Shown: positions 9,608-58,303 of the stretch, piece after piece | Numbering within the stretch: the stretch's first letter is position 1 | Layout of the letters: the number at the start of each line of letters is the position of its first letter | IMG/VR virus record: IMGVR_UViG_3300017605_000140 | Span: 46,390 to 110,389 of that record | DNA length: 64,000 bases | Source of the DNA: a virus | Strand: one strand, 5' to 3' | Notes under the pieces: generated by a model | Databases searched by the model: none | What the model was told of the DNA's origin: nothing | Seen by the model: the letters and a program-made list of their open reading frames with translations, nothing else | Made by a program: the position numbers and the translations under genes

Positions 9608-10399
9608 TTAAGAAAGCGGTGTCCCAATACTGCTAGCTATACTACTAGTAGCTACTTGAGACATTACAGTGAATGATACATCTACGGCACAACGTGATGG
9701 AACCATATTTGAAGCAAAATGGGTCCATGTCACATTTTGTCCGCTTATATATCCAAAGTAAGATAGTGCACCCTTGGAACTCTCTCCGAAATAAAGATTA
9801 GCTGGTACTAATTGCATAGGTCCCTGAACAACATTAGTAACTTTAGCAGGATTTATAGCTGGAGGGGCTGCTTGTCTTTGTGTATTAGTCTGTACTTGAG
9901 TTATATTTATACCCAATAAATTATAGAAAGCTTCCACATCAACACGTGCCCCATATGTTCCTGCTAACGTTCCCACATAACCAGAATCCCATAATTCAAA
10001 AGTACGATCAAATAACAAAGAAAAAGAGATAGTAGTATTTAAGCTAGTAGCATATGACCCCGGGTCATCTGGTCTTCTGGCGTAAGCTGGAAGAACTCCG
10101 CTGTTTAAGTCAATAGATCTACTTTCAGAAATAGTGGAGGGATTATAGAGAAAATTAACCTTATACTGTATATTCCCACTAACCCCTCCAACACCTGCGC
10201 CAGCTACAATTATTCCCCTGTATATATTTCCTACTTTAGAGCTAAAGTTTTTCCTAATTGTGGGATTAGTAGCAGTATTAGCTCCACCTACTGTAAGAAT
10301 ATTAGGATGGAATGTTGGATTCTCAAAAACTGTTATTCCTGGTTTCCCGCTGAGTGTGGGATATATAGTACCATTTATAGGCTCAATAGGAAAAGTCAT
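9608..10399 (-). CDS. Tube initiator/contractile tail tube-like protein
   Basis: 'FLYNP..I', 'F.LLFDRT', 'THF...MVP.R..V'; follows the tape measure gene. Confidence 0.65.
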   Translation of the reverse strand: MTFPIEPINGTIYPTLSGKPGITVFENPTFHPNILTVGGANTATNPTIRKNFSSKVGNIYRGIIVAGAGVGGVSGNIQYKVNFLYNPSTISESRSIDLNSGVLPAYARRPDDPGSYATSLNTTISFSLLFDRTFELWDSGYVGTLAGTYGARVDVEAFYNLLGINITQVQTNTQRQAAPPAINPAKVTNVVQGPMQLVPANLYFGESSKGALSYFGYISGQNVTWTHFASNMVPSRCAVDVSFTVMSQVATSSIASSIGTPLS

Positions 10400-39333: not shown

Positions 39334-39336
39334 AAG

Positions 39337-39420
39337 TGCGCAGAGAAGGACTTGAACCCCCAGACTCCGAAGAGGACGGCTTTACAGGCCGCAACGCTAC
39401 CAATTACGTGTTATCTACGC
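39337..39420 (-). tRNA. tRNA-Tyr(GTA)
   Basis: Cloverleaf; anticodon arm gcggc-ctGTAaa-gccgt; long variable arm. Confidence 0.9.
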
Positions 39421-39517
39421 ATTGACTCCGGAGACCACTCTCCGCCTCCACCCTTATCGGGAGTGCGCAAGCATCCGGTGCATTCCCGAAAGGTGGATTT
39501 TTCTATCCGGGACCTAA

Positions 39518-39591
39518 GGGTGAATGACGGGAATCGAACCCGCTAGTACTTGGACCACAACCAAGTGCCTGACCGTTTGGCTTCATCCACC
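39518..39591 (-). tRNA. tRNA-His(GTG)
   Basis: cttgg-ttGTGgt-ccaag; T-loop TTCGATT. Confidence 0.9.
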
Positions 39592-39597
39592 ATGAAA

Positions 39598-39768
39598 CTA
39601 CTTCTTAGCGTAATATCCCCAGCAGTTATTGGAATGGCTTTCCTCAAATTCAGAGATTCTTTCGCCTAACTTACTTTTATCCTTTAGTTTATATGTTTTT
39701 CTGTAACCGCAGGTGCATATAAACTTAATCTTGTTATCCCATATATCGTACACATATTTAGCATCCAT
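39598..39768 (-). CDS. 56-aa hypothetical protein
   Basis: AAGGAG RBS; MDAKYVYDIWDNKIKFICTCGY... Confidence 0.55.
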   Translation of the reverse strand: MDAKYVYDIWDNKIKFICTCGYRKTYKLKDKSKLGERISEFEESHSNNCWGYYAKK

Positions 39769-39783
39769 TTTTAACTCCTTAAG

Positions 39784-39857
39784 TCCGCCCGCCGAGATTT
39801 GAACTCGAAATAACTCGTTATCAGCGAGTCGTGATTACCAGATTTCACTACAGGCGA
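39784..39857 (-). tRNA. tRNA-Ile(GAT)
   Basis: actcg-ctGATaa-cgagt. Confidence 0.85.
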
Positions 39858-39868
39858 TTATTGGATAG

Positions 39869-39962
39869 CTGAATAATATTAGAGGAGTCGAACCTCAAAC
39901 TCTATCCATAGTTCACCAGATAATAATCTGGTAGCTGATACCGTCAGCTTTAACATATTCAG
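39869..39962 (-). ncRNA. Atypical tRNA-like RNA with no canonical anticodon loop
   Basis: T-arm gagg-TTCGACT-cctc; 6-bp D-like stem agctga/tcagct; accaga-ttatta-tctggt arm; extended terminal stem. Confidence 0.6.
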
Positions 39963-39966
39963 TACG

Positions 39967-40039
39967 TACGCCAAGTGGGATTTGAACCCACAACCGCCAC
40001 CTTATAAGAGTGGAACTCTGACCGTTGAGTTATTGGCGC
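39967..40039 (-). tRNA. tRNA-Ile(TAT)
   Basis: ccact-ctTATaa-ggtgg; full cloverleaf. Confidence 0.85.
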
Positions 40040-40158
40040 ATAAATAGAGAAATAATATTGTGTCGGGATATATGTCCAGCCATGTTACTGAATCCCCACG
40101 CTGGTTGTCTAATATACACAATCATACGCTGTCCTAGGAGCGTGCTGATTTCTCTAAG

Positions 40159-40246
40159 CGGAAGCTAGGAGGGTCGAACTCCTACGGGCATTACCCCCAA
40201 CGCTTTTCAAGAGCGCGGCCGTCGCCGTCTTTCGGCTGGAGCTTCC
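40159..40246 (-). tRNA. tRNA-Ser(TGA)
   Basis: gcgct-ctTGAaa-agcgt; long variable arm; G discriminator. Confidence 0.85.
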
Positions 40247-40382
40247 ATAGCACTACGTTAGCGTTCTCCTGCGGCGTTCGTGCAACCGATCACTTCCTAG
40301 GCTGACAGGCTAACGTTTTTCCCTCACATTGCAAATCTGGTTGCACGTGGATGGAAGGCAGGCATGTGCTATGCCTGTGCTG

Positions 40383-40466
40383 CGGAAGATGGAAGAATTG
40401 AACTTCCTCGGGCTTTAAACCCTTACCTCATTAGCAGTGAGGCTGCTAGCCATTCGCTTATCTTCC
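40383..40466 (-). tRNA. tRNA-Ser(GCT)
   Basis: cctca-ctGCTaa-tgagg; long variable arm. Confidence 0.85.
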
Positions 40467-40470
40467 AAAG

Positions 40471-40547
40471 AGCACACTGGCGGAATCGAACCGCTAACCA
40501 ACTGCTTTGCAGGCAGTCTCCGAACCACACAGATTAGGTCAATGTGC
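40471..40547 (-). tRNA. tRNA-Cys(GCA)
   Basis: actgc-ctGCAaa-gcagt; U discriminator. Confidence 0.8.
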
Positions 40548-40608
40548 AAGCGCCGGGCCTTTAACCGTTAGGCACGTAGGTACGGGGTATTTCCTACATC
40601 ACCGGCCG

Positions 40609-40686
40609 TGGATTTGTAGCGATTCGAACGCTAGTCCTGAGAAATTCCGCATGCGGTTTTAGTCTCAGTCGAAACCTTCCAAACCC
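40609..40686 (-). ncRNA. Mini-tmRNA: isolated tRNA-like domain without a tag ORF
   Basis: GGGTTTG-GAAGGTTTCGAC-TGAGA..20 nt..TCTCAG-GAC-TAGCG-TTCGAAT-CGCTA-CAAATCC-A; G3.U70 pair; stemless D-loop ending TTCGAC. Confidence 0.75.
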
Positions 40687-40776
40687 ATTTAATTTTAGTA
40701 AGGTGGTCTTGGACCACTGGGCGGTTTAGGATTATTAGGCCCTGGAAAGGGCTTCGGTGTTTTTGGTGTTGTCACG

Positions 40777-40848
40777 TACCCGCAGAGGGATTCGAACCCC
40801 CGACATTCGCCTTGTAAGGGCGGTGCTCTCCCGCTGAGCTATACGGGC
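40777..40848 (-). tRNA. tRNA-Val(TAC)
   Basis: ccgcc-ctTACaa-ggcga. Confidence 0.9.
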
Positions 40849-40870
40849 ATTGCCCCAAAGGGCTTTATAC

Positions 40871-41077
40871 TTACTTCTTACGGCCGAAGAAACCCTTCTT
40901 AGCCGGTTCTGGTGCTGGTGGAGTAGCAGGCTGAAGTTCACGACTACGATAAACTCCCACATCTCGCGGATCATCATTATCAGATACCGCAATACGGTCG
41001 GTAGATGTCTCTGTAGCTACTACAGTACCATCTTTACCCGTAACCGTCACTACTTGATCACCCTTACGCCATCCCAT
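40871..41077 (-). CDS. Small KOW/SH3-like protein
   Basis: AAGGAGG RBS; 'WRKGDQVVTVTGKDGTVV'. Confidence 0.65.
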   Translation of the reverse strand: MGWRKGDQVVTVTGKDGTVVATETSTDRIAVSDNDDPRDVGVYRSRELQPATPPAPEPAKKGFFGRKK

Positions 41078-41106
41078 AATATCCTCCTTAGTGATGTTAT
41101 ACAACG

Positions 41107-41179
41107 TACTCCCGGAGGGAATCGAACCCCCAACCTAGTGGGTAGAAGCCACTTGCACTGTCCGTTGTGCTACGAGAGC
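41107..41179 (-). tRNA. tRNA-Arg(TCT)
   Basis: agtgg-ctTCTac-ccact. Confidence 0.9.
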
Positions 41180-41301
41180 ATAATAGGATTTTGATCCGGA
41201 ATCCTAAAACCGACTAGCTTATATGTACGTGCTAGAACGCACTCTATGTTTACCGTGTTTATATAGGGACAACCCTCACATAGAAGAACCCTATGTCCCT
41301 G

Positions 41302-41374
41302 TGCACCTAGAGAGACTCGAACTCCCAACTTTTTCGTCCGTAGCGAAACGCTCTGTCCATTGAGCTATAGGTGC
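41302..41374 (-). tRNA. tRNA-Arg(ACG)
   Basis: tttcg-ctACGga-cgaaa. Confidence 0.9.
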
Positions 41375-41382
41375 ATATTTAC

Positions 41383-41922
41383 TTAGACTGTCTGCTGAAC
41401 CAACTTGCTTAACTTCCGCTTGTGTCTGAAGCTTATCAGATACTCTGCCAGGCGTCCAGGGGTTACTAGGTAGGGAGGATACTCTGTCAGAGGTGATCCT
41501 ACCTCGCTGTAGTCCAGTGCTACTAACTGTGAGCATATCAGATGATCAGAATCTTCTACGCGCTTTGCCACTCTAGGATATTTGATTCCTAAACGATATA
41601 GTGCTATCGCTAAATAATCAAGAAAACTATATGGGATACCTTCTTGAAGAATAGCTCTTGTTATGATGCTATTTCGTTGTATATGAGACAGATTAACTAT
41701 CCCTGTAGACCACAGTACAGGACGACCATCATACTTTGCAAGTTCGGATATGAGGGCACCACCCGGTTCAGCTTCAACTATTTTACCATTACCCACGTAA
41801 ATAAAGGCATGTTCATAGTTAGTGAATCCGTCACCATTAAGCCACTGACCAAAGCGTATTAGCTTACCTACGCCGCCTTCTATAGAAACTAAACCGAAGT
41901 CTCCAGGCTCAGGTAAAACCAT
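41383..41922 (-). CDS. Permuted papain-like (YiiX/YebB-type NlpC/P60) amidase
   Basis: 'PGD', 'HAFIYVG...VEA' (His first), 'G.PY.F', 'LICSQLV' (Cys second), 'TPG.L'. Confidence 0.85.
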   Translation of the reverse strand: MVLPEPGDFGLVSIEGGVGKLIRFGQWLNGDGFTNYEHAFIYVGNGKIVEAEPGGALISELAKYDGRPVLWSTGIVNLSHIQRNSIITRAILQEGIPYSFLDYLAIALYRLGIKYPRVAKRVEDSDHLICSQLVALDYSEVGSPLTEYPPYLVTPGRLAEYLISFRHKRKLSKLVQQTV

Positions 41923-41943
41923 AATACTCTCCTATTATTAAAG

Positions 41944-42016
41944 TGATCCGACTCGGACTCGAACCGAGGACTCTGAGTTTAAAAGACTCGCACTCTACCA
42001 ACTGAGTTACCGGATC
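41944..42016 (-). tRNA. tRNA-Lys(TTT)
   Basis: cgagt-ctTTTaa-actca. Confidence 0.9.
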
Positions 42017-42078
42017 ATATACTGTCAGTGTTCTGAGGCTGACCTAATGCATTAAGGTAACTGACACAGCCTTCCGCG

Positions 42079-42151
42079 TGCTCCGTGTCCGACTTGAACG
42101 GACGACCTGCGCTTTAAGAGAGCGCTACTCTACCAACTGAGTTAACGGAGC
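42079..42151 (-). tRNA. tRNA-Lys(CTT)
   Basis: gcgct-ctCTTaa-agcgc. Confidence 0.9.
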
Positions 42152-42286
42152 ATTAATAGATATGACCTGACCTACACCCGAGTTTCACGGTTAACAGGTA
42201 GTAATTGTAGCCTTTGCGCATCTAGGCTGCATAGCATATCTAAGTAGCACTTTCATCGCCTATAGCGAACCGGTATGCCAAACCCG

Positions 42287-42359
42287 TGGACCTAGGGGGA
42301 TTCGAACCCCCAACCTTCTGCGTGCAAAGCAGTTGCTCTTCCATTGGAGCTACAGGCCC
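42287..42359 (-). tRNA. tRNA-Ala(TGC)
   Basis: actgc-ttTGCac-gcaga; G3.U70. Confidence 0.9.
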
Positions 42360-42488
42360 ATAAATCTGAAGGATTCCCCCAACTCCCCGAATTTCACGGA
42401 TCTTAGCCGACGTGCACCTTCAGATCTACAGCTTAGCAGATGTGGCGGTTTTTTCCTAGCAGGCGGTCCGCCAACCGCTGTTAATACT

Positions 42489-42725
42489 TTACCACGTGGT
42501 AGCGAATCTTGCAACTTCTTCTTCAGTCAGCTTACGTCCTACATGCCAACCTTCACAGAAGGCGCAAGGATAGCCTTCCATATCTCTGCTGTACTTTATA
42601 CTTAATTTATCTGCTGATTTTTCCGCTGTAGCTTCTGACTTGTAGTCTACCTTATTACCACAAGTCGCATCAATGCCATAGTGGAGTCCCGCAGCTATGT
42701 GCATTGATATAGCTTCGGGTTCCAT
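42489..42725 (-). CDS. Small Cys/His (zinc-binding) phage protein coupled to the Ro60 gene
   Basis: 'C..K..Y....A...Y.C..C.GWH'; ATG 1 nt after the TROVE stop. Confidence 0.65.
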   Translation of the reverse strand: MEPEAISMHIAAGLHYGIDATCGNKVDYKSEATAEKSADKLSIKYSRDMEGYPCAFCEGWHVGRKLTEEEVARFATTW

Positions 42726-42726
42726 A

Positions 42727-44307
42727 TTACCTGTTCTCCCAAGGCCAAGTCTGTGATTCCCCAGCTTCAATCAATGGTATCATCTGAAATCCCTTGTCAG
42801 TCAATCCTCCGAAGGTATGACGCTTCTTCGAACCAGACTCACTGTGCGCTGCTGCGTATCCCTCTAGGTTCCAAGTATACACAGGAACCCTGGCCGGAAC
42901 AACAGCTAGTGGATCACCACCGTAACCATTGTACTGCTCATCGGTGATAATGATAATACGATCATGACCATTGAAGCTACCCCGAACCGCCACATCGGTA
43001 TCAGTGCCTCCCATATCACGGAACTTATTCAGCATAGGCAGAATAGAGTCACCCTTACGGAATGAAACCTTCTCAAATGCGGGACCATTATAAGCAGAAC
43101 CGAACTGAACCAAATCCGCATTCTCAGCACGAAGTGCAAGTGCTGAACCGAAGATAGCAGCCTTATCAGCCATCGTCAACTCAGTGTCAGTACGGTGGTA
43201 GCTGAACATAGAACCCGAACGGTCAACCAGGATAAGCGTACGACCAGTAAGAGACGGAATATTACTGAGAGAAGCATTCAAAGCATCTTCCAATGCCGAC
43301 CCTATCTTCAAGCTACCCTTAGTGGCCTGATAAGCCGCAAGGAATCGGAAAGGAAACTGCTTACTCTTAACAACTTGCTCAGGATCAGCAAGCTTACTAA
43401 GCACCCCATTCAGTACCCTAACACTAACACCGGCATCCTGGAAGTTACGCAGATTGCGAAGTAGTGCCATGTATCCCATATTAGGAATAATAGCTTCCCA
43501 AGCCTGCTTATCCATAGGACCCTGGAGCCATCCTGCCATCGCCTCCCATGTCATTCCGGCTTCACCCAGAAGATTGTTACCCTCGTTGCGCAAAAGCAGT
43601 TCTCTGCGCAGTTCGGGACGGAAACTCACAAGGGTCTCACGATTGCGTATCATCTTAAGAATCTCAGGAAGAACCTCTACATTTCCGTAGCGACGATCCA
43701 GAGCATACTTGAAAAGCTGATTCTGCTTAGAGGATTCCGCAGAAGGGTGTGTCAACTGAATAACATCCGCAAAACGGTATCCCTTAGAATCTGTATCATA
43801 CTTCAGCAGACTGTACTCATTATAGAGCTTCTTTGCTCCATCAGCAACACCCTTCTTCAGGTACGCAGGGAAGTTCTTACCGTACTTAGCCTCGTAGTAA
43901 GCCAGCACCTCTCCAGGCTCATCAGCACGAGCCTGAGAAGCCGCTACGATGGCCCTAGGAGTCCCATTCATGGCCCCAGAGTCGTAGAGTGCCTTAGAAC
44001 CCTCAACAGCCGCTACGATGGCCGCAGAGCGCATGAAGGCATCATTGCGAAGCCAGCCAACAAAGCCCTGGAACCACTTAGGGTCCTGAACAGCCACGGA
44101 AGCACACAGGTTGGTGAAACGATCATCACGGTTCTTGGCAGACTCATAGAAAGTATCCTGACCGACAAAATTGGATACTGCCAGCAAGAACAACTCTGAC
44201 TTGGTATCCCTCCCAAAAGCTGCGCGACCATCATGATTTACAGTCATACCTGTAGTCTTAATAGGAGACTGCACCCCTGTACGAACCGCCCTATTGAACT
44301 TGCTCAT
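42727..44307 (-). CDS. rsr: Ro60/Rsr TROVE + vWA domain RNA-binding protein
   Basis: 'ELFLLAV..F..QDTFYE', 'RADEPGE', 'DV..L.HP', 'MTWE', 'MGYMALLRNLRNF', 'SKQFPFRF..AY', MIDAS 'VDRSGSM', 'GGT', 'IITDEQ'. Confidence 0.95.
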   Translation of the reverse strand: MSKFNRAVRTGVQSPIKTTGMTVNHDGRAAFGRDTKSELFLLAVSNFVGQDTFYESAKNRDDRFTNLCASVAVQDPKWFQGFVGWLRNDAFMRSAAIVAAVEGSKALYDSGAMNGTPRAIVAASQARADEPGEVLAYYEAKYGKNFPAYLKKGVADGAKKLYNEYSLLKYDTDSKGYRFADVIQLTHPSAESSKQNQLFKYALDRRYGNVEVLPEILKMIRNRETLVSFRPELRRELLLRNEGNNLLGEAGMTWEAMAGWLQGPMDKQAWEAIIPNMGYMALLRNLRNFQDAGVSVRVLNGVLSKLADPEQVVKSKQFPFRFLAAYQATKGSLKIGSALEDALNASLSNIPSLTGRTLILVDRSGSMFSYHRTDTELTMADKAAIFGSALALRAENADLVQFGSAYNGPAFEKVSFRKGDSILPMLNKFRDMGGTDTDVAVRGSFNGHDRIIIITDEQYNGYGGDPLAVVPARVPVYTWNLEGYAAAHSESGSKKRHTFGGLTDKGFQMIPLIEAGESQTWPWENR

Positions 44308-44384
44308 CTTTCCTCCTATAATGTGGTACGTTATTTAGATAAAATAAAACCCCTCAAGTGCGCCAACGCGGACCAAGGGGAAGA

Positions 44385-44504
44385 TTAGTAAGTTCCTAGA
44401 AATAACAATCTCTGGTGTATAGGCACCGTGCCCTAGATGGATTCGAACCATATTATTTCATTTCCAGTGAAGTAACCAGTGATTTTCGCATCGGAATTTA
44501 CTAA
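44385..44504 (-). ncRNA. Y-RNA-like element 1 (T-loop plus hairpin insert)
   Basis: stem-GATGCGAA-stem2-TACTTCA-[atgg TTCGAAT ccat, hairpin]-stem2'-TTATTTCTA-stem'. Confidence 0.8.
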
Positions 44505-44605
44505 GATGAAAAATAGATGGGTCGCTCTGCTGAACACCTAGTAACCCATAGGGATGATAGGAATTTACATACTGCTGTCTCTCACTCTATTTGTCAATAT
44601 TGCTA

Positions 44606-44679
44606 TACCCTAGAAAAAGTCGCTCATGGTGTCTTTGATTACCATTAATGTGAAGTAACCATGAGCTGCGCATCGGGTA
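44606..44679 (-). ncRNA. Y-RNA-like element 2 (minimal, no tRNA domain)
   Basis: taccc-GATGCG-ca-gctcatggt-TACTTCA-loop-accatgagc-gacTTTTTCTA-gggta. Confidence 0.75.
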
Positions 44680-44699
44680 AAACTTATTAAATTATATTA

Positions 44700-44837
44700 A
44701 CAGCTAGAAATAATCAACTACGGCATTTCTATACCGATGCTCTGCCATTGAGCTATTTACCGATGAGTCGGTAACAGAGGATTCGAACCTCTTGTCTTCG
44801 GTTCCGGTTGAAGTATCCGTAATTTTCGCAACGCTGT
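44700..44837 (-). ncRNA. yrlA: YrlA-type Y RNA with a circularly permuted tRNA-like domain
   Basis: Scaffold encloses T-arm agagg-TTCGAAT-cctct, loop-closed acceptor ttaccga-ctca-tcggtaa, TA, D-arm gctc-aatggca-gagc and stem accga/tcggt; next to the Ro60 gene. Confidence 0.88.
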
Positions 44838-44944
44838 CAAAACTGAATGATAGAAGGGATAAGAACGTTCGTATCAAGATTACTGGGACGTTGTACTCGA
44901 TTACAGCCGCTAGCAGGCTACCCAAACCTTCTATCAAGTTTACG

Positions 44945-45031
44945 GTGACTAGAAATAATGATAAAAGTATTATAAACCCCATTTTCGGTGGAGTATTTTC
45001 ATTGAAGTATCTCTTATCTTCGCATCGTCAC
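44945..45031 (-). ncRNA. Y-RNA-like element 4 (single hairpin insert)
   Basis: gtgac-GATGCGAA-gataagag-aTACTTCA-...-cttttatc-aTTATTTCTA-gtcac. Confidence 0.75.
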
Positions 45032-45034
45032 AAG

Positions 45035-45107
45035 CTCGCCCACCTGGACTCGAACCAGGAACCGTCGCATTAACAGTGCGAAACTCTGCCAATTGAGTTA
45101 TAGGCGA
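45035..45107 (-). tRNA. tRNA-Asn(GTT)
   Basis: tcgca-ctGTTaa-tgcga. Confidence 0.9.
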
Positions 45108-45152
45108 ATACGGTCACTGTAGCTCTCGCGGTAATGACCTTGTGTACTACAT

Positions 45153-45182
45153 ATACTACCAGAGGTTGTTAGGCTCTGTCAA
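45153..45182 (-). promoter_or_regulatory. Internal promoter upstream of tRNA-Asn, the Y-RNA array and Ro60
   Basis: Minus strand TTGACA-18 bp-TAGTAT. Confidence 0.6.
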
Positions 45183-45183
45183 G

Positions 45184-45254
45184 CACGCCCTGTAGGAATC
45201 GGACCCACGCTTAGAGGTTTGGAATCTCTCGCACTACCATTATACTAAGGGCAT
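45184..45254 (-). tRNA. tRNA-Trp(CCA)
   Basis: agaga-ttCCAaa-cctct. Confidence 0.8.
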
Positions 45255-45267
45255 ATTATATTGGACG

Positions 45268-45350
45268 TACTCCCTGTCGGACTCGAACCGACACGTCATA
45301 AGACACGAGATCCTAAATCTCGCGCGGCTACCAGATTACGCCAAGGGAGC
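45268..45350 (-). tRNA. tRNA-Leu(TAG)
   Basis: cgaga-ttTAGga-tctcg; long variable arm. Confidence 0.9.
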
Positions 45351-45368
45351 ATAATAACCTGTATTACG

Positions 45369-45449
45369 TACCCACAGCCGGACTCGAACCGGCACGACCG
45401 AAGTCAACGGATTTTAAGTCCGTCGTGGCTGCCATTTCACCATGCGGGC
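45369..45449 (-). tRNA. tRNA-Leu(TAA), same isoacceptor as Streptomyces bldA
   Basis: acgga-ctTAAaa-tccgt; long variable arm. Confidence 0.9.
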
Positions 45450-45514
45450 ATTGCTGACTAGCTACGATTAAGTTGTATACCTGGAGCTTATCACACGTTA
45501 CAACGCTAGTCAAA

Positions 45515-45606
45515 CTAGATTCTAGTGAGGATCGAACTCACAAGCAGCCATCAGGATAAAGCGTACACCCTTACCCCACCTGTGTACAGGTTGCCACAGA
45601 ATCTAG
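45515..45606 (-). ncRNA. T-arm-containing tRNA-like ncRNA
   Basis: 9-bp terminal stem ctagattct/agaatctag next to gtgag-TTCGATC-ctcac; non-tRNA interior. Confidence 0.55.
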
Positions 45607-45608
45607 AG

Positions 45609-45681
45609 TACTCCAAGTCGGACTCGAACCGACAACTAGCGGTACTTGAAGCCGCTTCCTCTACCATTGGGATATTGGAGC
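45609..45681 (-). tRNA. tRNA with CAA anticodon (Leu), short variable loop
   Basis: gcggc-ttCAAgt-accgc with a 31-39 mismatch; 5-nt variable region. Confidence 0.7.
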
Positions 45682-45787
45682 ATTCTCGGTATTAACCGCT
45701 ACCGATGGGCGTAACCGTCACCGTCAGGTGTCTACGGTATTTCCGTAGGAACATTAGCACTATCAAAATAGACATCATAAACTAGAG

Positions 45788-45859
45788 AGCCTCTCCCCGG
45801 ATTCGAACCGAGCACTTGGCTTTACAAGAGCCGCGCTTTTCCCACTAAGCTAGAGAGGC
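45788..45859 (-). tRNA. tRNA-Thr(TGT)
   Basis: cggct-ctTGTaa-agcca. Confidence 0.9.
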
Positions 45860-46017
45860 ATTACCACTATACAAATTATACTGACACCAGTGGCCCATTT
45901 CAGTAACCCTATCCGAAATTTCTAAGCTTAGGGGGTATATGTGGTGAATAGTTTAAAGACATCACACCTGTCGGTCTTTAGAGAATTGCGGAAGGAGGAA
46001 CACAATTCTCTAGCTTA

Positions 46018-46317
46018 TTACGGCGCTGTTCCCGTAGCCTTAACGATAAAGTCGTTATTATCGTTAATTGTAAAATCAGTAGGAAGCGCAAATGGAGATG
46101 AATTGGTAAGCTGTACAAGGTACTGTCCGTCAGTAGCCCCAGCACCAGGAGTGTTGGCAGCTAAATTAAGAATAGAGCGTACTGTTGTTGGAAAAGTCGC
46201 CCCACTAGTTGTAGGTACTGGGAATACATAAGCATGCCCATCCTGCATAACTGCGGCACGTACTTGATCACCAACAGCTAAAGCGTCAGCCTTAACAATT
46301 GTATATGTGAATGCCAT
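46018..46317 (-). CDS. Hypothetical protein
   Basis: 99 aa ORF with GAAAGG RBS. Confidence 0.65.
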   Translation of the reverse strand: MAFTYTIVKADALAVGDQVRAAVMQDGHAYVFPVPTTSGATFPTTVRSILNLAANTPGAGATDGQYLVQLTNSSPFALPTDFTINDNNDFIVKATGTAP

Positions 46318-46560
46318 ATTTGAACCTTTCTAGAAAGAATTACTTTATGCTATAGCAATTCCTAATTGTACCCTAGAAAGATTATTTAGTGGACTGGTGG
46401 TCTCATCCCTCTGCCTGCTTCCGTAATCGTCCAAATACGGAGTATCTTCCACCACGGAGGCCCTACCCGTAACCGCGCCTCTTCTTGCTTGCCAAGCCGT
46501 CGAATAGGTGGCGACTTGAAGCACTCCTACCCAGGATTGGGTATCCTATTACGTGCTACG

Positions 46561-46632
46561 TACCCCCACGGAGAGTTGAACTCCGTCTTCAAGATTGAAA
46601 GTCTTGTGTACTAACCGATATACTATGGGGGC
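46561..46632 (-). tRNA. tRNA-Glu(TTC)
   Basis: caaga-ctTTCaa-tcttg. Confidence 0.9.
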
Positions 46633-46808
46633 AAAAACTACTGATACTTATATATGAAAAACGCGTCTATTCATATAGATCTGTATCAGTAGTATATGAG
46701 AAAGACTCACGCATCCTCTCTCATTGGATCAGCATCAAATAGGAGGGGGATTTTCGTCTTCACCCTAGCCCTTTATCTCAGGCCACGAAATCCTATAAGG
46801 CGTGTTGC

Positions 46809-46882
46809 TGGTGCCGCTACAGGGACTTGAACCCTGTCTATAAGCGTGAGAAGCTTACGTACTACCTATATACGATAGCGGC
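46809..46882 (-). tRNA. tRNA-Glu(CTC), CCA encoded
   Basis: taagc-ttCTCac-gctta. Confidence 0.85.
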
Positions 46883-47021
46883 ATAAGAGTGTAGATTTCC
46901 CGCACGGCCATCTACACTATATCCGGTGCTCGCGGACCGGTTTCTACCTTGGCTCTACATAACCCGGCCAAGTGGGTGATTATATTCCCCGTGCAGGTTT
47001 ATAATCTTTAAGTTTTTAAAG

Positions 47022-47094
47022 CGCCCCTGACCGGATTTGAACCGGCGACCTACGGCGTGACAAGCCGTTGCTCTCACCACTGAGCTACAGGAGC
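47022..47094 (-). tRNA. tRNA-Asp(GTC)
   Basis: acggc-ttGTCac-gccgt. Confidence 0.9.
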
Positions 47095-47125
47095 ATTGCC
47101 CTTGCGGGCTATTAGTGTTACTGTA

Positions 47126-47428
47126 TCACAGAACTTCTGGCCAGACAAGCTCTGGGGTAATCTCTGTTGCCCGACCATTCTTTACTACAACTCTGGAAAT
47201 ATCTAGCGAAGATTCACCAATACGTTCTATGACTAAGTAACTACTGGGGTACAGTGTAGCAAGTGTTTTTAGGTCTGTCAACCAATCGTACCATTTAACC
47301 GCACCCATAGTAACACCATTATAACTATCCACATACCAGCCTTCGTAGACTCCGGAATTATCATTTAAAACATCGACAATTCCAGTAATATCAGTGTCTA
47401 TCACTGTAAAAGTTGAATAATAACCCAT
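47126..47428 (-). CDS. Hypothetical phage protein
   Basis: AGGAGG RBS; 'MGYY', 'KWYDW..DL..L...YP...GE'. Confidence 0.7.
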   Translation of the reverse strand: MGYYSTFTVIDTDITGIVDVLNDNSGVYEGWYVDSYNGVTMGAVKWYDWLTDLKTLATLYPSSYLVIERIGESSLDISRVVVKNGRATEITPELVWPEVL

Positions 47429-47455
47429 ATTTCTATCCTCCTATAGATATTAAAG

Positions 47456-47528
47456 CTCCGGGAGCAGGAATCGGACCTGCGGAATTCTGATCCAAAGTCA
47501 GAGTGGCCTACCAGCAGACCATCCCGGA
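47456..47528 (-). tRNA. tRNA-Gln(TTG)
   Basis: tctga-ctTTGga-tcaga. Confidence 0.85.
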
Positions 47529-47642
47529 AAGTGGGTATGCGCGTTTGGATTCGGATTGCAGCCCTACCAAATCTTCAGGCATACCCTATCACACAGCTTT
47601 ACTAGTATCCGTGCGCTTACTCTTTGCCCTACTTACGCCCTG

Positions 47643-47713
47643 CTCCCGATCAAGGTTACGATCCTCGGTCATCCGCTCCAGAGGCGGAGGTAATTCCATT
47701 ATACGAATCGGGA
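47643..47713 (-). tRNA. tRNA-Gln(CTG), atypical T-loop
   Basis: tccgc-ctCTGga-gcgga; T-loop ATCGTAA. Confidence 0.75.
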
Positions 47714-47844
47714 ATAAGCACAGTCCCGCCATTCTGGTCCTGTCCTAGATTTTGTCAGTCTAGGAGTTGCGGGTTCTGAGGTGACTAATCTCAGCGATTT
47801 CTTCTGCTGTGCACAGACAGGAGATATCCTTGGATATCTCCTTG

Positions 47845-47915
47845 AGCGATATGGGAGATTCGAACTCCCTCGAACAACTTGGAAGGATGTCATGCAGCCT
47901 ATACATCAATATCGC
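47845..47915 (-). tRNA. tRNA-Gly(TCC)
   Basis: acatc-ctTCCaa-gttgt; U discriminator. Confidence 0.85.
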
Positions 47916-48019
47916 ATTGGTGGAAAGTCGCGTAGCTGTCTTCAAACCCCTGACATTGCTACCACTTACCTCTCGCGGGGAACGAGCAAAGGTTCCTCAA
48001 TAAAGGCCGGAACATGTGC

Positions 48020-48403
48020 CTAATCTGGTAGTGGACGACCGCAGCCGCCACAAATATTATATGGATTTTTAGGGATGTTAGCCCAGGTATACGGATATCC
48101 CTTTAACGTAACTTTTGAAGGTTCACCATACCCTACATTGGTGTCTATGTCAACTATACGATTTTCACCATCTAATGGGTAGAGAGACAACGCATAACCC
48201 TTATCATTACCCGGATCTTCATCGAAGATATCCTCAAAGATAACATGCGCTAAATACTCAGCATCATTGTAATTACGCTTCGCTCTTTCGGTATCCATAG
48301 ACCTCTTTACTACGGATGGTAATTCTGTTCCATCCCAGTGACTGTATAGATAAATACCTGGATTGTCACCATGATGAATATAAACGTTCGCTCTGTCTCC
48401 CAT
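48020..48403 (-). CDS. Hypothetical phage protein
   Basis: AAGGAGG RBS; 'MGDRAN....YLYSHWDG'. Confidence 0.7.
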   Translation of the reverse strand: MGDRANVYIHHGDNPGIYLYSHWDGTELPSVVKRSMDTERAKRNYNDAEYLAHVIFEDIFDEDPGNDKGYALSLYPLDGENRIVDIDTNVGYGEPSKVTLKGYPYTWANIPKNPYNICGGCGRPLPD

Positions 48404-48459
48404 AGTGCCTCCTTGTTGTTGAGGACTAAATAGTACCACGAAAGTTAAGGCTTGTAAAG

Positions 48460-48535
48460 TGGGGGCGCAGGTGGGAGTCAAACCCACTACTTTCCAGCTT
48501 ATGAGGCTGACGAGACATCGTTTCTCCATCCGCGC
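48460..48535 (-). tRNA. tRNA-Met(CAT), possibly initiator-like
   Basis: tcagc-ctCATaa-gctgg; 1:72 mismatch; CCA encoded. Confidence 0.7.
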
Positions 48536-48537
48536 AG

Positions 48538-48608
48538 TGGCTGTACAGAGGTTCGAACTCTGCCAAATACCTTATGAGAGTATTCCGGTCACCAGACCAT
48601 CTACAGCC
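48538..48608 (-). tRNA. tRNA-Met/Ile2(CAT)
   Basis: atact-ctCATaa-ggtat; short D-loop. Confidence 0.75.
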
Positions 48609-48618
48609 ATTATAAATG

Positions 48619-48689
48619 TGCCGCCCCACAGACTCGAACTGTGATAATCTGGGCTTCAACCAGAGGCTCTACCTTTGAGCTAAAGCGGC
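48619..48689 (-). tRNA. tRNA-Phe(GAA)
   Basis: tctgg-ttGAAgc-ccaga. Confidence 0.9.
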
Positions 48690-48760
48690 ATAATGAGTTA
48701 TTAAAATGTTGAGCACTAATATCTATTTATATTGTGAGTGTATACATTTGTGCTAACTCA

Positions 48761-48837
48761 TGGTCGGGATGACACGATTCGAACGTGCGACTTTCCGGTC
48801 CCAAACCGGAAGCTCTACCAAGCTGAGCTACATCCCG
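48761..48837 (-). tRNA. tRNA-Pro(TGG), CCA encoded
   Basis: tccgg-ttTGGga-ccgga. Confidence 0.92.
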
Positions 48838-57940: not shown

Positions 57941-58303
57941 GTGTCTAAGACTTTGAATGACATGATGGAAATTGACTACCCGGTAAGGGTGTCGGAGGAT
58001 GGGAGCCTTAGTTACGCTCCCGTGTATCCCCCTGATCTGTTCATCAATGCAACAAAAGAGGGGGATATTCTGCCAGAGCATGACACGGAAATGATGGCCT
58101 ACGCGGAAACCCAAGGATGGCATTTGCTTACCGGCTACTCTGGGCAGTATTCCTATTCCGGTCCGGTAATGCATCCTTGCGAATATATTGGGGGAGCACT
58201 GGAGGAATATATCATGTCCACCCCCGGAGTGTACGTTGTGGTTGTTCCTTACATGCTGGATAGTGAGGATGTCCCGGGATGGTGCATAGCTGAATTGATC
58301 TGA
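57941..58303 (+). CDS. Hypothetical early protein
   Basis: 'W.LL.GYSGQY.Y.GPVMH..E.IGG'. Confidence 0.7.
   Translation: MSKTLNDMMEIDYPVRVSEDGSLSYAPVYPPDLFINATKEGDILPEHDTEMMAYAETQGWHLLTGYSGQYSYSGPVMHPCEYIGGALEEYIMSTPGVYVVVVPYMLDSEDVPGWCIAELI

What the first reader, a model, noticed from the sequence alone, without database searches (positions are those of the whole stretch)
39337..48837. Most inter-tRNA spacers hold their own stem-closed structured RNA
Seen: many spacers are bounded by terminal inverted repeats and contain internal helices. Examples are 39424-39513 (tccacc/ggtgga, tcgggagtgc/gcattcccga), 40045-40156 (tagagaaat/atttctcta), 42157-42242 (tagatatg/catatcta plus two hairpins), 45455-45512 (tgactagc/gctagtca), 45863-45945, 46637-46693 (actactgatac/gtatcagtagt) and 47718-47812. 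They are unrelated in sequence and non-coding. Inference: tRNA processing would release a library of small ncRNAs, so the cluster may be a polycistronic ncRNA arsenal (protein sponges, anti-defence decoys, Ro60 clients) rather than just tRNA genes.
Basis: partly seen in the sequence, partly recalled or inferred. Interest (0 to 1): 0.7.

Follow-up and report, generated by a model that had tools for sequence, protein, structure and literature searches.

The report
Structured RNAs between phage tRNA genes
In this Streptomyces-type phage, the DNA between the 29 tRNA genes is a mosaic of conserved structured RNAs (four Y RNAs for an embedded Ro60 gene, a tmRNA-like RNA, tRNA mimics, several unknown RNAs), small protein genes and promoters, which makes the array a good place to look for new phage RNAs.

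Summary
All seven named stems exist. As a set, the 21 non-coding intervals fold better than the rest of the genome: mean z -1.43 against -0.21, Mann-Whitney p 3e-4. Two of the seven examples fold no better than shuffles. Strict end-to-end closure of a whole spacer holds for only 4 of 15, which is near chance.

Comparison with about 10 related phages gives the stronger evidence. tRNA order is conserved, but spacers come and go (0-1 nt up to hundreds). Many spacers are conserved RNAs with compensatory base changes:
- Pro>Phe, Glu>Glu, His>Tyr, Arg>Arg and Ala>Lys
- a tmRNA-like tRNA-like-domain RNA
- a tRNA-Cys that ARAGORN missed
- four YrlA-like Y RNA modules directly upstream of the Ro60 gene

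Two further tRNA mimics and several hairpins are specific to this lineage, so covariation cannot be tested for them. Some intervals are coding: a 56-aa gene and a conserved 26-aa proline-rich ORF that abuts tRNA-Val.

A uniform U(-1) leader and the absence of encoded CCA fit excision by RNase P and RNase Z. Only the four Y modules carry the putative Ro-binding scaffold. Sponge, decoy or arsenal roles for the other RNAs remain untested.

Other first-stage notes of this scan had already flagged the Y modules, the mini-tmRNA and the tRNA mimic on this same stretch.

The parts
39336..48837 (-). Co-oriented tRNA array: 28 ARAGORN tRNAs plus tRNA-Cys, covering all 20 amino acids
   Evidence: The same tRNA order is found in about 10 related phages.
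42727..44307 (-). Ro60-like gene (TROVE plus vWA), 526 aa
   Evidence: Pfam TROVE E 2e-18 and VWA_2. phrog_850 E 2e-47. PDB TROVE-domain proteins E 2.5e-26. The homologue in phage pSt2308 is annotated as Ro-like.
44944..45031 (-). Y-RNA-like module U1
   Evidence: Shared scaffold: outer stem, GAUGCG(N)AG, inner helix, UACUUCA ... UUUUUCUAG, outer stem. Model R1 gives 50 bits, E 3.6e-10.
44699..44837 (-). Y-RNA-like module U2, YrlA-type, with T-arm, closed acceptor-like hairpin and D-arm in permuted order
   Evidence: Rfam YrlA 29.3 bits, E 4e-4, below the gathering score of 69. 37 pairs, 15 of them with changes on both sides against 5.4 +/- 1.5 in shuffles; 98% of cells paired.
44605..44679 (-). 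Y-RNA-like module U3 (short hairpin type)
   Evidence: R1 gives 43.6 bits. z -2.77.
44391..44497 (-). Y-RNA-like module U4 (carries a T-arm)
   Evidence: R1 gives 33.9 bits.
40471..40547 (-). tRNA-Cys(GCA) with an atypical D-arm, missed by ARAGORN
   Evidence: Rfam tRNA 31 bits, above the gathering score of 29. The anticodon loop CUGCAAA is invariant in 7 genomes, and 16 of 25 pairs show compensatory changes.
40609..40686 (-). tmRNA-like tRNA-like-domain RNA ('mini-tmRNA') without an mRNA-like domain
   Evidence: 22 pairs, 12 with changes on both sides against 6.4 +/- 1.3. The G3.U70 pair is invariant in 8 of 8 sequences. Weak truncated Rfam tmRNA hit of 12.7 bits. The same region matches unannotated DNA at 81-84% identity in Streptomyces phages LuckySocke and Alone3.
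40695..40775 (-). 26-aa proline-rich ORF whose GTG start abuts the 3' end of tRNA-Val
   Evidence: The frame is conserved in 5 genomes, always starting at +1 of tRNA-Val. Between the window and L004 there are 6 synonymous changes and 1 replacement, read from the sequences.
40550..40607 (-). Stem-closed hairpin module between the mini-tmRNA and tRNA-Cys
   Evidence: Fold (z -0.26). Contiguous sequence conservation in L002 and L003.
39866..39962 (-). Non-decoding tRNA mimic: about 12-bp acceptor-like stem, 6-bp D-like stem, anticodon-like hairpin with a 4-nt loop, variable hairpin and T-arm
   Evidence: z -4.09. Rfam tRNA-Sec 28.4 bits, below the gathering score of 47. Orphan T-arm. No homologue found.
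45514..45607 (-). tRNA-like RNA: 9-bp closing stem, a consensus T-arm and two other hairpins
   Evidence: z -2.70. Orphan T-arm. No Rfam hit at E 10 or below. Not conserved in sequence, although L003 has a different tRNA-like element in the same interval.
45455..45512 (-). Lineage-specific stem-closed hairpin (reader example)
   Evidence: z -2.73. No homologue in relatives.
48690..48760 (-). Pro>Phe spacer RNA, stem-closed, present in all relatives
   Evidence: 17 pairs. Covariation score 0.339 against 0.160 +/- 0.031. 95% of cells paired, against 26-53% when partners are slid. z -3.2.
46633..46808 (-). Glu>Glu spacer RNA with two domains; the 3' hairpin at 46637-46693 is a reader example
   Evidence: A homologue is present in all 10 genomes. 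44 pairs, 20 of them compensatory, in 5 sequences. The hairpin has z -5.07.
39421..39517 (-). His>Tyr spacer RNA with an invariant loop AAAAAUCCACCU; present in 5 genomes, and the spacer is 0 nt in 4
Evidence: 27 pairs, 12 with changes on both sides against 6.1 +/- 1.6. Presence and absence.
41180..41300 (-). Conserved structured RNA after tRNA-Arg(ACG)
   Evidence: 25 pairs, 8 with changes on both sides against 3.8 +/- 1.2; 99% of cells paired. Thermodynamic z is only -0.09.
42157..42242 (-). Ala>Lys stem-closed RNA (reader example)
   Evidence: z -0.14. Even so, 19 pairs, 6 of them compensatory, in 3 lineages, including 3 in the closing stem.
40247..40381 (-). 135-nt structured element between the two tRNA-Ser genes
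   Evidence: z -2.1. 75% identical to an element that sits between Ser-tga and Ile-tat in L008 and L009, which is a different slot.
47529..47641 (-). Gln>Gln spacer with a conserved core
   Evidence: 82% identity to L007 and 71% to L005. Only 4 compensatory pairs in 3 sequences. z -0.47.
47714..47843 (-). Gly>Gln spacer: a perfect 10-bp hairpin plus the stem-closed module 47718-47812
   Evidence: z -3.97 and -2.54. Lineage-specific. In the same slot relatives have 1-171 nt, and in L002 and L006 the spacer reads as a mini-ORF.
40040..40157 (-). Ser>Ile spacer, closed by a 9-bp stem
   Evidence: z -2.3 and -2.05. Closed end to end. No homologue found.
46883..47020 (-). Asp>Glu spacer with several hairpins
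   Evidence: z -2.47. The first 58 nt are conserved in L028 and L029.
45153..45182 (-). Promoter-like TTGACA-N18-TAGTAT in the Trp>Asn spacer, followed by a hairpin
   Evidence: The motif is conserved in L005 and L007, and the hairpin sequence differs between relatives.
39598..39768 (-). 56-aa ORF with an AAGGAG ribosome-binding site in the Ile>His interval

Best explanation
The 9.5-kb minus-strand block is a phage RNA island.

Shown here:
- It carries a full set of 29 tRNA genes and a Ro60 gene.
- Roughly half of the intervals between the tRNAs carry RNA structures maintained by selection. These are four YrlA/YrlB-like Y RNA modules directly upstream of Ro60, a tmRNA-like tRNA-like-domain RNA, and at least five further structured RNAs of no known family (Pro>Phe, Glu>Glu, His>Tyr, Arg>Arg, Ala>Lys).
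- There are also two non-decoding tRNA mimics and several lineage-specific hairpins. Energy supports these, but covariation cannot be tested for them.
- The remaining intervals hold small protein genes and promoter-like sites.

Inferred:
- The block is transcribed as a few long precursors.
- Host RNase P cuts at the uniform U(-1) leaders. RNase Z cuts after the discriminator, because no CCA is encoded. Each spacer would then be released as a discrete RNA whose terminal helices protect it from exonucleases.
- The conserved spacer RNAs are optional accessory modules that act in trans on host or phage RNA-binding factors. They are not elements needed for tRNA maturation. The reasons are that relatives join the same tRNAs with 0-5 nt, and that the RNAs keep invariant unpaired loops.
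- Only the four Y modules are Ro60 partners. Ro60 with its Y RNAs probably handles misfolded or structured RNA from this very dense RNA locus.
For: - Thermodynamics: window spacers have mean z -1.43 against -0.21 for the genome background, p 3e-4. Spacers in relatives have mean z -1.27.
- Covariation with shuffle and slide controls: YrlA-type, His>Tyr (54), Pro>Phe (55), mini-tmRNA (56), Arg>Arg (90), Ala>Lys (91), Glu>Glu (92), tRNA-Cys (76).
- Y scaffold: the motif occurs 4 times in the window against 0.54 expected, all upstream of Ro60. There are 2-5 motif copies in the same place in relatives and 1 in several distant Ro60 contigs. Model R1 finds exactly four full-length hits in the window and about 3-6 in most close relatives.
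- Processing signals: U at -1 in 89% of 270 tRNAs, G excluded from -1 to -4, and no encoded CCA. No strong minus-strand terminators lie inside the array.
- Modularity: tRNA order is fixed, but the same junction ranges from 0-1 nt to hundreds of nt among relatives. One element occupies a different slot in L008 and L009.
- Invariant unpaired loops are seen.
- Precedent: YrlA RNAs lie next to Ro60 in 254 bacteria and 22 phages, with at least two Y RNAs in each studied species (PMC4201824).
Against: - No expression or end-mapping data exist. Excision, stability and any trans function are inferred.
- Energy does not discriminate the strand.
- Strict end-to-end closure is near chance.
- Six of 21 intervals have whole-interval z at or above -0.1, i.e. 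no better than shuffles.
- The most stable elements (39866-39962, 45450-45607, 47714-47843, 40040-40157) have no homologues in about 20 related loci or in exact-match scans. They could therefore be recent, neutral or decaying sequence.
- The alignments hold only 3-10 sequences. The shuffle control does not correct for phylogeny.
- The YrlA hit is far below Rfam's gathering score.
Confidence: 0.62

Rival explanations
1. The spacers are cis-acting processing and insulation elements only. Self-contained hairpins keep neighbouring pre-tRNAs from mispairing, present single-stranded U-rich leaders to RNase P and block exonucleases. The excised pieces are waste with no function of their own.
For: - The leader is uniform: YYAU before the tRNA, with U at -1 in 89%.
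- Most spacers end in a helix 2-6 nt before the next tRNA.
- Many stable elements are lineage-specific with free sequence drift.
- In the Trp>Asn hairpin the stem sequence differs between relatives while a hairpin is kept.
Against: - Relatives join the same tRNA pairs with 0-5 nt, for example His|Tyr 0 nt and Gly|Gln 1 nt. The spacers are therefore not needed for processing.
- Several spacer RNAs keep long invariant unpaired sequences and multi-helix architectures. An insulator would not need these.
Confidence: 0.25
2. Many spacers are decaying or remodelled tRNA genes (pseudo-tRNAs) and other evolutionary debris of a fast-turnover array. Their structure is a leftover of cloverleaf ancestry, not a new function.
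For: - Orphan T-arms with consensus GTTCGA loops occur in four to seven non-tRNA places per genome.
- Relatives carry extra tRNAs (Thr-ggt, Thr-cgt, Ser-gga, a second Asn) where the window has spacers.
- L003 has a truncated tRNA-like element in the Leu>Leu slot.
Against: - The mimics have perfect, extended helices (12-bp and 9-bp closing stems, z -4.1 and -2.7) rather than eroded ones.
- BLAST finds no similarity between the window spacers and the extra tRNAs of relatives.
- The conserved spacer RNAs (Pro>Phe, Glu>Glu, His>Tyr, Arg>Arg) are not cloverleaf-like, and they covary.
Confidence: 0.1
3. The spacers are small mobile elements (MITE-like) with terminal inverted repeats that insert between tRNA genes.
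For: - Some elements have terminal inverted repeats.
- Presence and absence vary between relatives.
- One element sits in a different slot in L008 and L009.
Against: - No spacer has a second copy anywhere in the 110-kb genome.
- No target-site duplications are visible in the sequences.
- The elements are strand-consistent with the array and show RNA-type (G-U tolerant, compensatory) variation.
Confidence: 0.02

Closest known systems
YrlA/YrlB bacterial Y RNAs encoded next to Ro60 (Rsr) (Rfam RF02553; Chen et al. 2014, PMC4201824)
   Same: - They lie directly upstream of, and on the same strand as, a Ro60 gene, in several copies.
- One module has a T-arm, a closed acceptor-like hairpin and a D-arm in the YrlA order. 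Others are short hairpins or carry only a T-arm, like YrlB.
- The 5' strand carries a conserved motif related to GNCGAAN0-1G.
- ACUUCA also occurs in M. smegmatis YrlB and, interrupted, in YrlA. This was deduced from the published probe sequences.
   Different: - The score is far below Rfam's gathering threshold (29.3 against 69 bits).
- The scaffold motif is GAUGCG(N)AG ... UACUUCA ... UUUUUCUAG with two covarying helices.
- There are four copies here and about 3-6 in most close relatives, embedded in a tRNA array of a Streptomyces-type phage.
tmRNA tRNA-like domain; the domain-only mitochondrial tmRNAs of jakobids (Rfam RF00023 and RF02544). The comparison with jakobids is from my own knowledge.
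   Same: - The 7-bp acceptor has an invariant G3.U70 pair.
- A stemless D-loop analogue ends in UUCGAC.
- GAC precedes a consensus T-arm.
- There is no anticodon arm.
   Different: - It has no mRNA-like domain and no pseudoknots.
- The Rfam tmRNA score is 12.7 bits against a gathering score of 47, and there is no mt-tmRNA hit.
- ARAGORN does not call it.
- The phage encodes no SmpB.
Stable RNAs C and D (species 1 and 2) in the phage T4 tRNA cluster (my own knowledge; rnaC is mentioned in PMC9697503 and PMC10690425)
   Same: They are non-tRNA small stable RNAs encoded among phage tRNA genes, and they are released from the same precursors by tRNA-processing enzymes.
   Different: T4 has two such RNAs. 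Here a dozen or more candidate modules are spread over most junctions, and they have no sequence relation to the T4 RNAs.
GOLLD and ROOL large ornate RNAs near phage tRNA islands (PMC12286853; Morgado et al. 2020, cited there)
   Same: They are structured non-coding RNAs of unknown function that travel with phage and prophage tRNA arrays.
   Different: Those are single RNAs of 500-800 nt with Rfam models. No such hit occurs here, and the elements here are 60-180 nt and numerous.
tRNA-precursor spacers acting as sRNA sponges in E. coli (3'ETS-leuZ and ITS-metZW; Lalaouna et al. 2015, my own knowledge)
   Same: In both cases a spacer excised from a polycistronic tRNA transcript would act in trans.
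   Different: The E. coli spacers are short and work by base-pairing to known sRNAs. No target is known here, and no complementarity was tested.

Membership tests
YrlA / Y RNA (RF02553) | Score at or above Rfam's gathering threshold (69 bits) | tested here: not met
   29.3 bits, E 4e-4 to 5e-3, at 44714-44823.
YrlA / Y RNA (RF02553) | Encoded within 4 kb of a Ro60/TROVE gene and on the same strand | tested here: met
   The four modules at 44391-45031 end 84 nt upstream of the Ro60 start at 44307, on the same strand.
YrlA / Y RNA (RF02553) | tRNA-like module with T-arm and D-arm flanking a closed acceptor-like hairpin | tested here: met
   Met for module U2. The T-arm, a 7-bp hairpin and the D-arm are all supported by covariation in 7 genomes. 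U4 has only a T-arm. U1 and U3 have none.
YrlA / Y RNA (RF02553) | 5' motif GNCGAAN0-1G thought to contact Ro60 | tested here: inconclusive
   A related but not identical motif, (C)GAUGCG(A/N)AG, occurs in all modules and in distant Ro60 contigs.
YrlA / Y RNA (RF02553) | Bound and stabilised by Ro60 | not testable with these tools
   This needs Ro60 immunoprecipitation.
tRNA (RF00005), for 40471-40547 | Gathering score, cloverleaf and a 7-nt anticodon loop | tested here: met
   31 bits against a threshold of 29. The loop CUGCAAA is invariant, and the acceptor, anticodon and T stems covary. The D-arm is atypical.
tRNA (RF00005), for 39866-39962 and 45514-45607 | Gathering score and a decodable anticodon loop | tested here: not met
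   There is no tRNA hit at E 10 or below. The only hit is tRNA-Sec at 28.4 bits against a threshold of 47. The anticodon-like loops are 4 nt (or 8 nt in an alternative register) and GUGUACG. A T-arm is present in both.
tmRNA (RF00023) | Gathering score of 47 bits | tested here: not met
   12.7 bits in a 5'-truncated local hit that covers the T-arm and the 3' acceptor strand. ARAGORN finds no tmRNA in the genome.
tmRNA (RF00023) | tRNA-like domain with G3.U70, a D-loop analogue and a T-arm | tested here: met
   G.U is invariant in 8 of 8 sequences. The acceptor stem, helix 2 and T-arm covary.
tmRNA (RF00023) | mRNA-like domain with a resume codon and a tag reading frame | tested here: not met
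   Helix 2 is closed by a 20-nt loop with a 3-bp hairpin. The upstream block is a conserved proline-rich ORF in another frame, and the 'tag' frame has stops in L002 and L017.
MITE-like mobile element | Multiple copies in the genome | tested here: not met
   No second copy of any spacer in the 110-kb genome.
Intrinsic terminators | GC-rich hairpin followed by a U-run on the transcribed strand | tested here: not met
   9 terminator-like sites were found against 7.4 +/- 3.2 expected. The four on the minus strand are weak, and three of them lie inside ORFs or overlap a tRNA rather than in the spacers.

The most novel reading that the evidence does not exclude
The array is a tRNA-punctuated operon that uses the host's tRNA-processing enzymes to manufacture a changeable set of trans-acting RNAs and leaderless mini-mRNAs aimed at the translation and RNA-surveillance machinery. 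The set would include a domain-only tmRNA, non-decoding tRNA mimics, several new structured RNA families, Y RNAs for a phage Ro60, and a proline-rich peptide released as a leaderless message by cleavage of tRNA-Val. Modules would be swapped between related phages like accessory genes.
Probability: 0.25. Interest if true: 0.85.

Novelty: new variant of a known kind. Interest (0 to 1): 0.62.

Why it matters
Phage tRNA arrays are usually annotated as tRNA genes with filler between them. Here at least eight intervals hold RNAs kept by compensatory evolution, and most belong to no Rfam family. They sit beside a phage Ro60 with its own multi-copy Y RNAs and a tmRNA-like RNA.

If the spacer RNAs accumulate, tRNA punctuation would be a general way for phages to express many small RNAs from one transcript. 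The locus would then offer a compact, testable set of candidates for new phage RNAs acting on host translation, RNA quality control or tRNA-targeting defences. Natural presence and absence of each module among relatives provides ready-made controls.

Tried and rejected
- Rfam at gathering and permissive thresholds. Only tRNAs, one extra tRNA, and weak YrlA, tRNA-Sec and tmRNA hits appeared. No GOLLD, ROOL, riboswitch or sRNA family matched.
- Mobile-element idea. No repeated copies were found.
- Terminator idea. No enrichment was found.
- Decayed Thr-ggt or Ser-gga tRNAs as the origin of the Thr>Leu and Ser>Ser spacers. BLAST found no similarity.
- Reading the Y scaffold as a TTGACA-N17-GATACT promoter. 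I rejected this as the main reading because the outer stem covaries with its 3' partner in every module, and the -35-like hexamer is absent from most modules.
I rejected it in favour of a conserved proline-rich ORF in another frame.
- Exact-pattern scans of IMG/VR for the two lineage-specific tRNA mimics. They returned only chance matches or nothing.
- A metagenome scan for closer relatives. None exceeded 77% full-length Ro60 identity (one 36-residue fragment, L080, reached 89%), and none carried the lineage-specific spacers.
- Phage-encoded SmpB, CCA-adding enzyme and RtcB. All are absent.
- A strict 'whole spacer closed by one helix' statistic. It is not enriched.

Full report
**Setting.** The window lies in a 110,389-bp virus record with direct terminal repeats. 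The few DNA matches to isolated phages are all to Streptomyces phages. One of them is pSt2308, which has an annotated 'Ro-like RNA binding protein' inside a similar tRNA array. ARAGORN finds 28 tRNAs, all on the minus strand between 39336 and 48837, and none elsewhere in the genome. A 526-aa Ro60-type protein (TROVE plus vWA) is encoded at 42727-44307 in the middle of the array.

**Checking the observation: the seven examples.** The terminal stems of all seven named examples are recovered by MFE folding. Five fold better than dinucleotide shuffles, with z from -1.96 to -5.07. Two do not: 42157-42242 has z -0.14 and 45863-45945 has z -0.57. Boundaries chosen at inverted repeats bias such scores downwards, so I also folded whole intervals.

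**Checking the observation: whole intervals.**
- The 21 non-coding intervals have mean z -1.43, and 10 are at or below -2.
- 110 length-matched random segments of the same genome have mean z -0.21, and 5.5% are at or below -2 (Mann-Whitney p 3e-4).
- A first, smaller control gave -0.79.
- 69 spacers in seven related arrays have mean z -1.27.
- The antisense strand folds equally well.
- A single helix closing the whole spacer is seen in only 4 of 15 spacers. The chance rate is 11-16%.

The spacers are therefore enriched for stable local structure. 'Bounded by terminal inverted repeats' fits individual hairpin modules, not most whole spacers.

**Relatives.** The Ro60 protein retrieved about 10 related phage contigs with 65-77% protein identity, plus more distant ones. 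The tRNA order is the same in all of them: Pro-Phe-Met-Met-Gly-Gln-Gln-Asp-Glu-Glu-Thr-Leu-Leu-Leu-Trp-Asn-[Ro60]-Ala-Lys-Lys-Arg-Arg-Val-Ser-Ser-Ile-Ile-His-Tyr. The length of a given junction, however, ranges from 0-1 nt to several hundred. The spacers are therefore optional inserts, not something tRNA maturation requires.

**Y RNAs.** Between tRNA-Asn and Ro60 lie four modules: 44944-45031, 44699-44837, 44605-44679 and 44391-44497.
- They share one scaffold: a short outer stem, GAUGCG(N)AG, an inner helix and (A/U)UACUUCA on the 5' side, and UUUUUCUAG plus the outer stem on the 3' side.
- The motif pair occurs four times in the window against 0.54 expected, and only in this interval.
- It recurs 2-5 times upstream of Ro60 in the relatives and once in several distant Ro60 contigs. 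Both helices differ in sequence but stay paired.
- The second module gives a weak Rfam YrlA hit of 29.3 bits against a gathering score of 69. It has the YrlA order of T-arm, closed acceptor-like hairpin and D-arm.
- Over seven genomes, 15 of its 37 pairs change on both sides, against 5.4 +/- 1.5 in shuffles. 98% of cells are paired, against 38-54% when partners are slid.
- A covariance model built from it finds exactly four full-length matches in the window, all in this interval, and about 3-6 in most close relatives.
- This matches published knowledge. [quoted passage not shown]
- No other spacer carries this scaffold.

**tRNA-related modules.** Six consensus T-arms lie outside the ARAGORN tRNAs. 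Two belong to Y modules. The other four are as follows.
- 40471-40547 is a genuine tRNA-Cys(GCA) with an odd D-arm. Rfam gives 31 bits, the anticodon loop is invariant, and 16 of 25 pairs are compensatory. This completes a 20-amino-acid set.
- 40609-40686 has a 7-bp acceptor with G3.U70 invariant in 8 of 8 genomes, a D-loop analogue ending in UUCGAC, a covarying helix closed by a small conserved hairpin, and GAC plus a T-arm. This is a tmRNA tRNA-like domain with no mRNA-like part. 12 of 22 pairs are compensatory. The tmRNA hit is weak, at 12.7 bits. The phage has no SmpB.
- 39866-39962 (z -4.1) and 45514-45607 (z -2.7) are tRNA-shaped, but their long closing stems and loops cannot decode. They have no homologues, so selection on them cannot be tested.
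- Relatives also carry four to seven orphan T-arm elements each. Some of these are tRNAs that ARAGORN missed.

**Other conserved spacer RNAs.** Compensatory variation supports structure in the following.
- Pro>Phe, present in all relatives. The covariation score is 0.339 against 0.160.
- Glu>Glu, present in all relatives. Two domains; 20 of 44 pairs are compensatory.
- His>Tyr. 12 of 27 pairs are compensatory, and the loop AAAAAUCCACCU is invariant.
- The RNA after tRNA-Arg(ACG). 8 of 25 pairs are compensatory.
6 of 19 pairs are compensatory in three lineages, despite z near 0.
- The Ser>Ser element is conserved, but it sits in a different slot in L008 and L009.
- Gln>Gln has a conserved core with little covariation.

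**Ordinary contents.**
- 39598-39768 is a 56-aa ORF with a strong ribosome-binding site.
- Larger gaps hold ORFs of 77-179 aa, some with PHROG hits.
- The Trp>Asn spacer has a conserved promoter-like TTGACA-N18-TAGTAT.
- 40695-40775, directly after tRNA-Val, encodes a 26-aa proline-rich peptide. Its frame, and its start at +1 of the tRNA, are conserved in five genomes. Between the window and L004 there are six synonymous changes and one replacement.

**Mechanism.**
- Across 270 tRNAs in 11 loci, position -1 is U in 89%, -2 is A in 59%, and G is excluded from -1 to -4. CCA is not encoded.
- There are several promoter-like sites and no strong minus-strand terminators inside the array.
- From established knowledge of bacterial tRNA maturation, RNase P prefers U(-1) and RNase Z cleaves CCA-less precursors after the discriminator. 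I infer that each spacer is released as a discrete RNA with defined ends, and that its helices slow exonucleases.
- Relatives do without individual spacers, and several spacer RNAs keep invariant unpaired loops. I therefore favour accessory trans-acting roles over a pure processing or insulation role, but no function was tested.
- Ro60 with its Y RNAs may act on misfolded or structured RNA from this locus. That is speculation by analogy with the Rsr-Y RNA-PNPase complex.

**Comparison and novelty.** Non-tRNA RNAs in or near phage tRNA clusters are known. Examples are T4 RNAs C and D, GOLLD and ROOL near tRNA islands (PMC12286853), and YrlA next to phage Ro60 (PMC4201824). Large surveys report many unassigned structured RNAs and tRNA-like structures in phages (PMC10690425). 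What is new here is their density and variety within one array, and several RNA families with no Rfam match. I rate it a new variant of a known kind.

**Relation to earlier notes.** Other first-stage notes of this scan had already pointed to the four Y modules, the mini-tmRNA, the tRNA mimic and the Ser>Ser element on this same stretch. I had reached the Y modules and the orphan T-arms before reading those notes. The tmRNA reading of 40609-40686 came from them, and I then tested it.

Noticed in passing
window 40695-40775 (-): A 26-aa proline-rich ORF (VTTPKTPKPFPGPNNPKPPSGPRPPY) has its GTG or ATG start directly against the 3' end of tRNA-Val in five related genomes. Changes between relatives are mostly synonymous. 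RNase Z cleavage would leave a leaderless or nearly leaderless message. Its composition recalls proline-rich ribosome-targeting peptides, and it sits just upstream of the tmRNA-like RNA.
   Followed up: partly
L005 and L007, immediately after tRNA-Lys(ttt) (L005:7939-, L007:8172-): Cys/His-rich ORFs of 42-50 aa that start with ATG at +1 of the tRNA 3' end. This is a second possible case of tRNA-punctuated leaderless mini-genes. The Gly>Gln spacers of L002 and L006 read as mini-ORFs preceded by a GGAGG ribosome-binding site, in the slot where the window has hairpins.
   Followed up: no
window 13249-13386 (-): The first 138 nt of a 995-aa ORF (10399-13386, minus strand) fold into two long hairpins with z -5.5 (and -5.2 on the other strand). 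This was the strongest outlier among the random control segments.
   Followed up: partly
window 57961-58095: A random control segment had z -3.0. It lies in the GC-rich part of the window (54-58 kb, GC 0.53-0.58 against about 0.41 elsewhere).
   Followed up: no
L013:3596-3792: In this relative, the apical loop of the conserved 3' hairpin of the Glu>Glu RNA is replaced by an insert with a T-arm-like CAGGTTCGAAACTGG.
   Followed up: no
window 42190-42230 (-), inside the Ala>Lys RNA: The loop sequence GAUGCGCAAAGG ... UUACUAC resembles the Y scaffold motifs GAUGCG(N)AG and UUACUUCA. The covariance model does not match this element.
   Followed up: partly
window 39421-39517 (-) and relatives: The invariant unpaired AAAAAUCCACCU of the His>Tyr RNA can also pair with a downstream AAGGUG-type segment in several relatives. 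This suggests an alternative fold or a pseudoknot. UCCACC also resembles the 3' end of the tmRNA-like acceptor.
   Followed up: no
L002:5782-5852, L004:5782-5855: ARAGORN calls a 'tRNA-Asn' and a 'tRNA-Ser' upstream of Ro60 in these relatives. Both fall inside matches to the Y RNA model, so they are probably tRNA-like Y RNA domains and not tRNAs.
   Followed up: partly
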